Assembly (NCBI RefSeq): GCF_022846255.1
Contig: NZ_AP025682.1
DNA length: 64,000 nt
DNA from: Escherichia coli
GTDB lineage: Bacteria > Pseudomonadota > Gammaproteobacteria > Enterobacterales > Enterobacteriaceae
Direction: 5' to 3' (one strand)
The position numbers are program-made. Position 1 is the first letter of the stretch, and each line of letters begins with the position of its first letter. Shown piece after piece: positions 36,501-39,500 of this stretch.

Positions 36501-39500
36501 CCGTTCATCACACTTTCGCAATGCAAGAAGAAACCTCATGACAAAAAGAATGACCTTACACGGAAAAGAAAACGTCAGGAATCGTTAATGCCTCAATCTG
36601 ATTGTTATCAAAACATCCAGAAAGTCGTTTAACAGAATCGTCGTAAGCACATCGAAAAAAACGTCAGATTACTTCAGGAAAGTTCGGGTTGATTTAGCGT
36701 AAAGATACTTTTCTCATGCTAACGTCGAAACTCGAAATCTCAGGAAAGGTTAAACGTAACATCAGTAAAATCGAATAGCAGATTGATTGCTGAAGCAGAA
36801 AGGTTTTACAGCAGCATTAAACTGATTTAGTTAACGTAAAGATTTACTAAACTGGATGTGTATAGCAATGCTTAACGAAAACACTTGTAGAAGTGTTTAT
36901 GAAAATACGTGTATAAGACTTACTGAAATGCTTAGTAAAAATACTTAGTAAAATACGTGTATATAGTATCATACCGACATTAGCAACATTCTCAGACACT
37001 CATGCAGACTGAATGTTGATTACCCGTTTTCACATCAGGCATGGTTCTTTACTGACCAAAAAACAAACTGGTTTACTCTTGAATTATTTTCTCTACCTCA
37101 GAAAACATGGTCTCAGGAATCTGCTATGGTTTCATAGTTTCTGTTGTTCCTTTCATAAAAGTTATAAGTCATTGTCATAATCATACGATAATCACTTTAT
37201 GTTAGTTTTTACTGTCACACGCTACTGACTTTTTCAGTCATTGCCAGAAAGGGGCTCTTTTTACTTCCATTTCACCACTCAACAAATGCAAAACTTGTCC
37301 AGTAAAGCGGACCACCTCTTGCTCACAAGCAACGAATCATCTCCAGGAACAGCCCTCAAACATTGCAGAAACAAAAACAACAAAACCCTCATTATCACTG
37401 ATGTTCGGAAAATTTCCCGGAACAAAAAAAACGAAATCAAAATGAGACTCATTATCATGGATGTAGTCAAAAAGACGTTATGGTGGCTTTCAGTTAAATG
37501 GTACTATTTCTCATAAATCCACTTAACTTTTTTTACTGATTCATCCCAGATAACCACTTTATCAGTAAAAAATGAATTATATAGATTGACGAGTTTTTCT
37601 GTTTCAGTTATTCCCAATGTATTATGTATCAGTTGTAGATATGCTTTTATCCAGATTTCTTTACCCTCCCTCCACTTATCTATAAAACTTTCCAGCTTAC
37701 TTAATCGTTGATTTATAAAAAACGAATCAATATCATGAAAAAGCTCAACAAGAAAACAGCACGAGACAATCTCAACAAAAAACAAATTCTCCTTAAAAGT
37801 ATTATAAAACCTTATCAACACATAACGAAAAACACCTCCTGTTAATCTTTCCTGTTCATAAAACAACAAACCAAAAACAGGAGGAAATCTTTTAACCACA
37901 CCACTTTTAATCCAGTAAGGATGATGATTAGTCTTTACTGGCAGTGAATAAAAGAACAATTCGGTTTCTCTTTTCCCACCACAAACAGACAAAACTGTCT
38001 TATAAAGACTTTTTGAATCATTATGTCCTGATACCCCAGACGAATTAGCAGAGTATTTTCTTTTTACTTTTTGCCTTAATGGAGCTGGAAGAATAATAAA
38101 ACGGGATGGCAGATAACAATCGCTTTCAGAAGACCGGCATTCGCACACATGAAGATTTATATTTACATCCGGACAATTCAAAAACCACACAGAATAATTA
38201 TCGCACCGTTTGCAATATGAAACCCATGAATAAATTGCATAAAGTTCAGAAAGCGCATCTAACTCTGCTTTTGAATTAAATGTGATACCGTTTCTTCGAA
38301 TTCTCGTTTCCAGCGTTCTCCATGCCGGGGTTTTCAGTATCTCACGAACTTTTTTATTAAGTTCAGCCAGAGATGGTCCCTGCTCCTGTTTATGTTTCGT
38401 CCTGCTGTTAATGATTTCTCTTTCTTTTACTAATTTCCTCTTTCTTTTTGGTCCTTCTACCTTTCTTGGCAATGCTTCATTTAATCTGTGAACAGGATTT
38501 TGCTCTCTTCTTTTTTTGAGCTCACAAAACCTCTCATAATGTTTTCTGCACAGTCTTTTCTCCACTGCCATTTTTACTGAGAAAACCTGATTGTTACAAT
38601 TTTTTCTGACACATTTGTTTTTACGTCCGGTCATCCTCTCATCTCCTGAAACAGCAGTATGTCATTAGTTCCCGTTCTGAAAAACTGACGCCATACTCCA
38701 TTACACTTTAACAATAATGTCCGTAATTCAGACATTCCATCATTTTTCACGCCCATATTACCTGAATGATAAACCGGATTAGTGTGATCCGGTTCAGTGA
38801 AATCAACAGGATACCGGTATGTCATTCAGCCATTCTTCCCTCTCCGCACAAGTGAAATCATATCTGACGTTTCTTCCTGAAGAAATTCGTCAGAAAATTC
38901 TTGAACATCTCCACAGCGTTATTCATTACGAACCCGTGATTGGCATTATGGGTAAATCCGGCACCGGCAAAAGTAGCCTGTGTAATGCTATTTTTCAGTC
39001 CCATATCTGTGCCACGCATCCCCTGAACGGCTGCACCCGCCAGGCTCATCGTCTTACCCTGCAGATCGGTGAACGCAGAATGACGCTGGTCGATCTGCCC
39101 GGCATTGGAGAGACGCCGCAACATGATCAGGAATACCGGGCGCTTTACCGTCAGTTACTGCCGGAAGTGGATTTGATTATCTGGATCCTGCGGGCAGATG
39201 AACGCGCATATGCCGCCGACATTACCATGCATCAGTTTTTACTGAATGAAGGCGCAGATCCCTCGCGTTTTCTGTTTGTTCTCAGCCATGCCGATCGCGT
39301 GTTTCCTGCTGAAGAATGGAATGCCACAGAAAAATGCCCGTCCCGTCAGCAGGCGCTCTCACTGGCGACGGTGACAGCCCGGGTGGCAACCCTGTTCCCT
39401 TCATCATTTCCGGTACTCTCCGTTGCTGCACCTGTCGGCTGGAACCTTCCGGCGTTTGTGTCGCTGATGATCCACGCACTGCCACCACAGGCAACCAGCG

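What the first reader, a model, noticed from the sequence alone, without database searches (positions are those of the whole stretch)
37504..38634. Cys-rich 376-aa hypothetical protein in the variable slot next to the YfjP GTPase / WYL regulator block
Well-supported gene (ATG, strong RBS) with extreme AT richness, an N-terminal CxxxxC...CxxHYxxFC cluster suggesting a zinc ribbon, and a Lys/Arg-rich linker. It occupies the cargo position between a YfjJ-family gene and the conserved CP4-57-like backbone, divergent from the GTPase gene. I cannot assign it to any family, so it is a candidate uncharacterised effector.
Basis: inference. Interest (0 to 1): 0.6.

Follow-up and report, generated by a model that had tools for sequence, protein, structure and literature searches.

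The report
Hypervariable dead-HNH gene beside island GTPase
This real but unnamed E. coli island gene encodes a zinc-ribbon protein descended from an HNH DNA-cutting enzyme that has lost its cutting residues, and it is one of several extremely divergent versions of a gene that usually sits beside the island's YfjP GTPase; its function is still unknown.

Summary
The ORF is real: 37504-38634 on the minus strand, 376 aa, ATG start, AGGAG 8 nt upstream, 34% GC against 52% in the backbone. Its dN/dS is about 0.3, so it is under purifying selection. It is WP_001339473.1, "hypothetical protein", found in 462 of 5426 complete E. coli genomes. Pfam, NCBIfam, PADLOC, PHROGs and PDB give no hit.

An exhaustive profile search found a tiny family, seen only in Enterobacterales, of 28 representatives among 1.84 billion proteins. 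Distant members keep an intact H..N..N HNH motif and match phage HNH-endonuclease PHROGs (E about 1e-7). A profile-profile alignment (99.9% probability, full length) places E165, R178 and R187 of the window protein at those three catalytic positions. The predicted beta-beta-alpha scaffold, the CCCH zinc ribbon and a family-specific C-terminal helical domain are retained.

The "cargo" reading does not hold. A family member lies next to a YfjP-type GTPase in almost every locus examined, and next to an AlpA gene in many of them. In E. coli the 1.65-kb cassette exists as at least three forms that are only 18-25% identical, while the adjacent GTPases are 93-98% identical.

My best reading is a non-cutting DNA-binding specificity or regulatory protein of the island backbone. 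The function itself is inferred, not shown.

The parts
37504..38634 (-). CDS of the 376-aa protein (WP_001339473.1, 'hypothetical protein')
   Evidence: ORF list and sequence. Annotated identically in CFT073 and EC42405. dN/dS about 0.3.
38643..38647 (-). Shine-Dalgarno AGGAG, 8-nt spacer to the ATG
   Evidence: Read directly from the sequence.
38524..38613 (-). Residues 8-37: CCCH zinc-ribbon motif (C8, C13, C29, H32; C37 only in the close clade)
   Evidence: C8, C29 and H32 are nearly invariant in the 18-sequence family alignment. The equivalent region of distant members matches the zinc-ribbon repeats of phage HNH endonuclease family phrog_1271. pLDDT is 93-95.
38335..38517 (-). Residues 40-100: Lys/Arg-rich linker, predicted disordered over residues 58-83
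   Evidence: 20 K+R in 61 residues. pLDDT is below 50 for residues 58-83.
38053..38154 (-). Residues 161-194: degenerate HNH beta-beta-alpha core, with E165, R178 and R187 in place of the His, Asn and Asn
   Evidence: hhalign of the close clade against the HNH-intact clade. Invariant H156/N170/N179 in the intact clade. The AF2 model has strands 161-165 and 179-183 and helix 184-194.
37507..38022 (-). Residues 205-376: family-specific helical C-terminal domain with conserved P252, L256, E260, R263, E288 and Y352-N353-x-x-F356
   Evidence: Family alignment. AF2 model. No structural neighbour beyond generic helical bundles.
37091..38742 (.). Variable cassette: the CDS plus 413 nt downstream and 108 nt upstream, flanked by conserved island DNA
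   Evidence: blastn breakpoints against islands that carry other alleles, L018 and L019, and the break at query position about 109.
38819..39703 (+). Divergently transcribed YfjP-family GTPase gene, the conserved neighbour
   Evidence: Annotation, NCBIfam GTPase hits, synteny across distant loci.
35258..35989 (-). YfjJ / inovirus-Gp2-family (Rep-like) gene downstream on the same strand
   Evidence: Annotation in CFT073 and EC42405. Pfam YagK_YfjJ_C and REP_ORF2-G2P on its homologues.

Best explanation
The gene encodes a catalytically inactivated descendant of an HNH (His-Me finger) endonuclease. It keeps an N-terminal CCCH zinc ribbon, a basic disordered linker, the beta-beta-alpha scaffold and a family-specific helical C-terminal domain. 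It is a fast-evolving, AT-rich backbone gene of P4-integrase-type islands, placed at the junction between the cargo region and the conserved GTPase-DUF932-antirestriction-RadC-CbtA block, next to AlpA and/or the YfjP GTPase gene. What is shown: the family relationship, the loss of the catalytic residues, purifying selection, the conserved neighbourhood, and the idiomorph-like allelic cassettes. What is inferred: the protein binds DNA without cutting it, through the zinc ribbon, the linker and the dead HNH core, and it acts as the island's allele-specific regulatory or specificity module for the divergent GTPase backbone operon. On this view the C-terminal domain carries the family's conserved function, which could be partner or signal binding. 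This is analogous to the divergent master repressors of phage-inducible islands.
For: Family: 28 representatives among 1.84 billion proteins, with a conserved zinc ribbon, W105, P183, R263, E288 and YNSFF. HNH origin: P0017 matches phrog_8660 'HNH endonuclease' at E 8.8e-7 and phrog_1271 at 1.5e-4, and P0021 matches phrog_1035 'endonuclease VII' at 0.007. The clade-C consensus matches phrog_1271 at 8.8e-8. There are weak same-place hits to the Cas9d HNH region and to Pfam HNH_4. The alignment to the SpCas9 HNH is gapless, H/N/N onto H840/N854/N863. The window clade is homologous to that clade over 349 columns, probability 99.9%, E 3e-31, with E165, R178 and R187 at the catalytic positions. The AF2 model (pLDDT 80.8) keeps beta-beta-alpha at residues 161-194. 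Selection: dN/dS 0.29-0.35. Neighbourhood: the gene is adjacent to a YfjP-type GTPase in E. coli, Salmonella-like, Klebsiella, Atlantibacter and Citrobacter loci and in two distant loci. An AlpA gene is directly upstream in 4 of 4 distant loci and directly downstream in L012 and L007, the two close-clade loci tested. Hypervariability: the cassette spans 37091-38742, the E. coli alleles are 18-25% identical and the adjacent GTPases 93-98% identical, and 7 of 9 sampled non-376-aa loci carry another family member. The protein has pI 9.7 and a basic linker.
Against: No direct evidence of DNA binding or regulation exists. The protein has no helix-turn-helix, and 376-430 aa is large for a repressor. 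In the distant clade the gene is co-directional between alpA and the GTPase gene rather than divergent. Those members keep an apparently active HNH site, so the ancestral role was probably enzymatic. No convincing promoter or operator was found. The GTPase occurs without the family in some islands (L024, UPEC 536), and the family occurs without the GTPase in others (L006, L015). The HNH link rests on PHROG profiles and motif spacing. Pfam and PDB sequence searches give nothing significant.
Confidence: 0.4

Rival explanations
1. It is the nucleic-acid-sensing subunit of a two-gene conflict module (defence, anti-defence or inter-element exclusion) formed with the YfjP GTPase. The HNH-derived protein recognises foreign or own DNA, the GTPase acts as switch or effector, and the hypervariability reflects an arms race.
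For: Adjacency to the GTPase is conserved across 20-35% protein identity. Allelic divergence is extreme beside near-identical GTPases. Distant members have an intact nuclease motif. The GTPase has a weak similarity to LeoBC of the Eleos/dynamin defence system, E 2e-6. Neighbouring cargo genes are defence genes. NTPase plus HNH pairs are a known defence design (Septu; own knowledge).
Against: No PADLOC model matches the protein, five relatives or, convincingly, the GTPase. The E. coli alleles lack catalytic residues. The X alleles and the GTPase alleles assort independently: CFT073 has an identical X next to a 95%-identical GTPase. Each gene occurs without the other in some loci. The pair sits in the conserved backbone next to antirestriction genes, not in the cargo region.
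Confidence: 0.2
2. It is an accessory factor for replication or transfer of the excised island. A former nicking enzyme is retained as an origin-binding protein that works with the Rep-like YfjJ protein and AlpA on the conserved non-coding region between them.
For: The gene lies between alpA or yfjJ (Pfam REP_ORF2-G2P, weak hit) and the backbone. A conserved 1.1-kb non-coding stretch with iteron-like repeats at 36871-36963 lies between X376 and yfjJ. Phage HNH enzymes are often nickases (own knowledge).
Against: The non-coding region stays conserved (70-90%) between islands with unrelated X alleles, so it does not co-vary with X. That region has no similarity to plasmid origins. L006 and L015 have X without a yfjJ gene. 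Nothing shows that these islands replicate.
Confidence: 0.15
3. This is the first reader's view: a stand-alone, horizontally acquired cargo effector (toxin or anti-phage nuclease) occupying a variable slot.
For: The gene is AT-rich (34% GC) within a 52% GC backbone. The DNA of the slot differs between islands. No named family matches.
Against: The slot is filled by homologues of one family in nearly all loci examined. AT-richness is a family-wide trait, 33-46% GC in all members. The catalytic residues are lost. There are no PADLOC hits. The family is absent from IMG/VR and almost absent from the plasmid collection, with one match each for this protein and a distant member among 72,556 records.
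Confidence: 0.1
4. It is a decaying free-standing homing endonuclease gene with no remaining cellular function.
For: It has HNH ancestry with lost catalytic residues. The cassette has sharp borders inside conserved DNA. Some relatives have intact motifs.
Against: dN/dS is about 0.3 and the 376-codon frame is intact in the genomes listed, with ≥95% identity in 461 of 462. Full-length conservation, including a C-terminal domain unrelated to cleavage, extends down to 17-20% identity. No empty site was seen among the sampled loci.
Confidence: 0.07

Closest known systems
Phage HNH endonucleases with N-terminal zinc-ribbon repeats (PHROG families phrog_1271, phrog_8660; endonuclease VII-like phrog_1035)
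   Same: Distant members of the family match these profiles at E about 1e-7 over the CxxxxC...CxxH(Y) ribbon and the HNH core. The window protein shares the ribbon motif and the beta-beta-alpha position through full-length homology.
   Different: The window protein itself matches none of them. It lacks the catalytic His and both Asn residues. It carries a C-terminal helical domain of about 170 aa that these phage enzymes lack. It was not found in IMG/VR viral contigs.
Cas9-type HNH motif (Pfam HNH_4; SpCas9 H840/N854/N863)
   Same: The HNH-intact clade has H, N and N at offsets 0, +14 and +23, with Pro at +3. It aligns to the SpCas9 HNH without gaps and gives weak same-place hits to Cas9d and HNH_4.
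   Different: The similarity is not significant on its own (E 0.02-0.3). The residue before the His is Cys or Ser, not Asp. The window protein has E165, R178 and R187 at the three positions.
Master repressors of phage-inducible chromosomal islands, such as SaPI Stl (functional analogy only; own knowledge)
   Same: The gene is transcribed divergently from the element's main operon. It is extremely divergent between otherwise similar elements, and it is presumed to bind DNA.
   Different: There is no sequence or fold relationship and no helix-turn-helix. No repression or inducer has been shown. In the distant clade the gene is co-directional with the operon.
NTPase plus HNH nuclease defence pairs (Septu PtuA/PtuB; conceptually also the McrBC GTPase plus nuclease)
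   Same: An NTPase gene and an HNH-family gene are kept side by side on a mobile island.
   Different: No PADLOC model matches. The NTPase here is a small Era/TrmE-like GTPase, not an ABC or AAA+ ATPase. The HNH site is dead in all three E. coli allele classes.

Membership tests
HNH (His-Me finger) endonuclease superfamily | Significant profile match to an HNH family model | tested here: not met
   The window protein has no Pfam, NCBIfam or PHROG HNH hit. The clade-A consensus has none either. Only distant relatives match (P0017 to phrog_8660 at E 8.8e-7; clade-C consensus to phrog_1271 at 8.8e-8). The link to the window protein is transitive, through hhalign at 99.9% probability.
HNH (His-Me finger) endonuclease superfamily | Beta-beta-alpha metal-finger fold | tested here: inconclusive
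HNH (His-Me finger) endonuclease superfamily | Catalytic His at the end of strand 1 | tested here: not met
   E165 aligns to the invariant H156 of the intact clade. The position is not conserved in the close clade, where it is T, K or S.
HNH (His-Me finger) endonuclease superfamily | Structural Asn and metal-ligand Asn/His in the helix | tested here: not met
   R178 and R187 align to the invariant N170 and N179. The GG pair and N166 are replaced by S171-D172 and Y174.
Unnamed Enterobacterales family defined here (28 representatives; alignments A2/A5) | CCCH ribbon, W105, P183, PLFxLLxxExxRL, E288 and LYNSFF in one polypeptide of about 310-430 aa | tested here: met
   Every one of these positions is present in the window protein. 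The profile search gives E values from 1e-102 down to 1e-4 for the family.
Unnamed Enterobacterales family defined here | Location next to a YfjP-type GTPase and/or AlpA gene in a P4-integrase-type island | tested here: met
   In the window the gene is divergent from the GTPase gene. Synteny holds in 12 other loci.
Known anti-phage defence systems (PADLOC-DB 2.0) | Match to any defence-protein model | tested here: not met
   There were 0 families at E<=1 for the window protein and 0 at E<=0.01 for five relatives.
Zinc-ribbon domain | Four conserved metal ligands in two knuckles | tested here: met
   C8-x4-C13 and C29-x2-H32 are conserved (C13 in most members). pLDDT is 93-95.
Zinc-ribbon domain | Actual zinc binding | not testable with these tools
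   This needs metal analysis of purified protein.
Free-standing homing endonuclease gene | Active nuclease, plus presence/absence polymorphism with empty target sites | tested here: not met
   The catalytic residues are lost. No empty site was found among 9 sampled alternative loci. dN/dS is 0.3.

The most novel reading that the evidence does not exclude
The HNH-derived protein family and the YfjP GTPase form a previously unrecognised two-component conflict or induction-sensing module in the backbone of the commonest tRNA-associated E. coli islands (about a third of complete genomes). Its idiomorph-like alleles, 18-25% identical beside 93-98% identical neighbours, would each recognise a different invading phage, plasmid or rival island. 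A dead nuclease would have been repurposed as a sensor.
Probability: 0.2. Interest if true: 0.7.

Novelty: new variant of a known kind. Interest (0 to 1): 0.45.

Why it matters
CP4-57/CP4-44-like islands carry many virulence and defence cargoes, yet the role of their conserved backbone is essentially unknown. This backbone runs from the GTPase through DUF932, antirestriction, RadC and CbtA. This work turns one "no similarity" gene of that backbone into something testable. It is a nuclease-derived protein, presumed to bind DNA, that is tied to the GTPase and to AlpA. It exists as three or more deeply divergent alleles inside nearly identical flanks. That pattern is typical of specificity or immunity determinants and offers a handle on what controls these islands or what they compete with. 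If the protein is only a regulator of a cryptic element, the result is of modest, specialist interest.

Tried and rejected
1. Direct annotation of the window protein failed. Pfam, NCBIfam, PADLOC, PHROGs and PDB sequences gave nothing; the best hits were phrog_32134 at E 0.097 and sucrose synthase at E 0.37.
2. The word-indexed homologue search found only 4-6 clusters. The exhaustive search was needed to find the family.
3. AF2 with a 4-sequence alignment was useless, pLDDT 44. The 30-sequence alignment gave pLDDT 80.8.
5. PDB profile searches with the whole family, the HNH core and the zinc-finger region found no HNH structure. A Pfam scan of all 18 members found no HNH hit.
7. A 64-aa ORF upstream overlaps the start by ATGA, and 63-aa and 91-aa ORFs lie downstream. 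All are rejected as genes, because they carry stops or frameshifts in the 79% allele and even in CFT073.
8. No AlpA remnant was found in the 1.5-kb gap downstream of X376. The gap has no Rfam family and no similarity to plasmid origins.
9. The promoter and terminator scan was no better than shuffled sequence.
10. Literature searches for the accession, for YfjP/YeeP/YkfA, and for this combination of island backbone genes found nothing on this gene. The Shigella SRL island table lists the genes before the GTPase as "no similarity" (PMC6980539).

Full report
**Observation.**
AGGAG lies at 38647-38643, 8 nt upstream of the ATG. The gene has 34.4% GC and 28% GC3, against 53% for the neighbouring GTPase gene and 52% for the backbone 38819-46451.

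The protein has pI 9.7. Its N-terminal cluster is C8, C13, C29, H32 and C37. Residues 40-100 hold 20 Lys/Arg in 61 positions.

The gene is WP_001339473.1, annotated "hypothetical protein". Every source of a 3400-member cluster gives only that name or "uncharacterised". It is present in 462 of 5426 complete E. coli genomes, at 95% or more identity in 461 of them, and always on the chromosome. One example is the selC island of CFT073.

Pairwise dN/dS is 0.29-0.35 for close pairs, against 0.15 for the GTPase gene. It is therefore a selected coding gene and not a chance ORF.

**No direct annotation.**
Pfam, NCBIfam, PADLOC and PHROGs give nothing significant for the protein, and neither do PDB sequences.

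**The family.**
The word-indexed search of 5.8 billion clusters found only four. An exhaustive profile search of 1.84 billion representatives found 28 at E<=1e-3, about 15 of them full length.

An alignment of 18 full-length members, at 16-79% identity to the query, shows these conserved features:
- an N-terminal CxxxxC...(15)...LCxxHY motif, with C8, C29 and H32 nearly invariant;
- W105, L161, P183 and L210;
- the motif P252-L-F-x-L-L-x-x-E260-x-x-R263-L;
- E288;
- L-Y352-N353-S-F-F356 near the C-terminus.

Foldseek against AFDB50 returned only relatives, from E. coli, Salmonella, Klebsiella, Citrobacter and Serratia. Nearly all are "uncharacterized", and one is labelled HNH endonuclease. Species-representative genomes added Klebsiella oxytoca, Atlantibacter and Citrobacter freundii. 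No relative was found in IMG/VR viral contigs. Only one match each turned up in 72,556 plasmids.

**HNH ancestry and loss of the active site.**
Seven distant members form clade C (alignment A4). They have an invariant H156-x2-P-x3-GG-x-N166-x3-N170-x4-P175-x3-N179, and also a second zinc finger, CxxC...YCxxx[H/C]R. The evidence that this is an HNH domain is as follows:
- P0017 matches phrog_8660 "HNH endonuclease" at E 8.8e-7 over residues 31-201, and phrog_1271 "HNH endonuclease" at E 1.5e-4 over the zinc ribbon.
- P0021 matches phrog_1035 "endonuclease VII" at E 0.007.
- The clade-C consensus matches phrog_1271 at E 8.8e-8.
- Weak hits fall on the same residues for the Cas9d HNH region, E 0.02-0.03, and for Pfam HNH_4, i-E 0.29.
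- The motif aligns without gaps to the SpCas9 HNH, with H/N/N on H840/N854/N863. The residue numbers are from established knowledge.

The window's clade is homologous to clade C over 349 columns, with hhalign probability 99.9% and E 3e-31. In that alignment the window protein has E165 for the catalytic His, R178 and R187 for the two Asn, S171-D172 for the GG pair, and Y174 for N166. These positions are not conserved among its closer relatives either.

The AF2 model built from 30 sequences has pLDDT 80.8 and pTM 0.70. It keeps strand 161-165, strand 179-183 and helix 184-194 at this place. It also has a confident N-terminal ribbon, a disordered basic linker over residues 58-83, and a helical C-terminal half.

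The window protein is therefore HNH-derived, but it fails the defining catalytic features of the superfamily.

**Not cargo, but a hypervariable backbone gene.**
tblastn of the window's island proteins against all fetched loci shows a family member beside a YfjP-type GTPase gene in each of these cases:
- E. coli, including the 79% allele;
- Salmonella-like contigs, where X is 34% identical and the GTPase 52-58%;
- Klebsiella oxytoca, Atlantibacter and Citrobacter freundii, where X is 29-30% identical and the GTPase 51-53%;
- two clade-C contigs, where the two genes are in tandem and the GTPase is 58-59% identical.

Two clade-C loci lack the GTPase. One has DUF932 downstream instead and the other a ParM-like gene.

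An AlpA-family gene lies directly upstream of the family member, on the same strand, in all four clade-C loci. It lies directly downstream in the Klebsiella oxytoca (L012) and Salmonella-like (L007) loci. In CFT073 alpA lies further down the same strand, after yfjJ.

Within E. coli the GTPase gene is found in 1871 genomes, at 2510 places. Homology to the window breaks at 38743 and resumes at 37090. This defines a 1.65-kb cassette spanning 37091-38742.

I sampled nine islands that carry something else in that slot, with these results:
- Three have a 407-aa family member, hmmsearch E about 1e-61.
- Four have a 314-320-aa member that lacks the zinc ribbon, E 1e-12 to 1e-17.
- One is disrupted by insertion sequences (UPEC 536).
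- One has an unrelated 339-aa gene.

The 407-aa type occurs at 1069 places and the short type at 812, though the query for the short type also included a neighbouring gene. The 376-aa type occurs at 515 places. Together these come close to the number of GTPase places, but adjacency was verified only in the sampled loci.

The three classes are 18-25% identical to one another; BLASTP gives E 0.27 between the 376-aa and 407-aa forms. Their adjacent GTPases are 93-98% identical.

All family members are AT-rich, at 33-46% GC against 46-60% for their neighbours. Low GC is therefore a property of the family and not evidence of recent import.

**Mechanism.**
*Shown:*
- descent from an HNH family;
- loss of the catalytic residues;
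- retention of the ribbon, the scaffold and a conserved C-terminal domain under purifying selection;
- linkage to the GTPase and to AlpA;
- idiomorph-like alleles.

*Inferred:*
- The protein binds nucleic acid without cleaving it.
- It serves as an allele-specific regulatory or specificity module for the divergently transcribed backbone operon.
- The conserved polar residues of the C-terminal domain (E260, R263, E288, N353) form the family's functional site.

I give this 0.4. The rivals are:
- a sensor subunit of a GTPase-based conflict module (0.2);
- an origin- or transfer-accessory protein working with the Rep-like YfjJ (0.15);
- a decaying homing endonuclease (0.07).

The evidence against a classical defence role is the lack of any PADLOC match for the protein, five relatives or the GTPase, apart from a weak LeoBC similarity. 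The evidence against the regulator model is the co-directional arrangement in clade C, the apparently active nuclease there, and the absence of a recognisable operator or promoter.

**Novelty and verdict.**
No paper in the searchable library mentions the protein or this gene pair. The Shigella SRL island table lists the genes before the YfjP/YeeP GTPase as "no similarity" (PMC6980539).

The finding is a new, uncharacterised variant within the HNH superfamily: a pseudo-nuclease with a novel C-terminal domain and an unusual population structure. It is of moderate interest (0.45). It would rank higher if the pair proves to be a sensing or conflict module.

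Noticed in passing
window 35990-37090, repeats at 36871-36963: A non-coding stretch of about 1.1 kb lies between X376 and the Rep-like yfjJ gene. It is conserved at 70-90% between islands that carry unrelated X alleles. It has strong strand asymmetry (AT skew up to 0.36) and an array of 12/24-nt iteron-like repeats (TATACACGTATTTT, TACTAAG(T/C)ATTT). It might be an origin or a binding-site array. It has no Rfam family and no similarity to plasmid origins.
   Followed up: partly
window 32883-34781 (minus strand): A 632-aa AT-rich ORF has strong PADLOC matches at its N-terminal ATPase to AriA, GajA and Old (E 8e-22 to 1e-13), and NCBIfam matches to retron Eco8 effector, PtuA and RecF-like ATPases. 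It is probably the real defence cargo of this island.
   Followed up: partly
L018 5236-6024, L020 1158-2012, L024 1849-2868: A second unnamed protein family of 262-339 aa occupies the same slot in other E. coli islands. It shares the motifs AAFWxW and KWAWxYI and a similar C-terminal tail. It is convergent with the short X allele, with the 3' ends overlapping, or it stands alone in L024. NCBIfam gives no hit.
   Followed up: partly
window 38762-38829: The 75 nt upstream of the GTPase start are conserved across X alleles. They contain a perfect palindrome, AACCGGAT-N7-ATCCGGTT (38772-38794), nested in a 16-nt inverted repeat that reaches the GTPase ATG. This could be an operator or a 5'UTR structure. 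The decamer GTATGTCATT occurs both at the GTPase start and in the allele-specific region at 38657-38666.
   Followed up: no
window 38819-39703: The C-terminal part (residues 181-283) of the YfjP-type GTPase has a weak PADLOC similarity to LeoBC of the Eleos/dynamin system, E 2e-6 with no single stretch passing the threshold. Its G domain resembles Era, EngA and TrmE.
   Followed up: no
window 29924-30490, 31691-32763, 35258-35989, 28806-29036: The window holds two YfjJ-family genes (188 and 243 aa), ORFs that I read, from their translations only, as transposase fragments between them, and a single alpA gene far from X376. The island looks composite. tRNA-Phe lies at 3386-3461, followed by an integrase gene at 3596-4924.
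   Followed up: partly
L004 8811-8932; L025 3961-4080: The WYL/YafY regulator gene between the GTPase gene and the next backbone gene is missing in some islands, namely the one with the 79% X allele and strain BHD6. It is therefore not an obligatory partner of the GTPase or of X.
   Followed up: no
family-wide (L003-L019): Every member of the X family is 10-27 GC points poorer than the gene next to it, whatever the host or clade. This is a persistent compositional trait and could imply H-NS silencing.
   Followed up: partly
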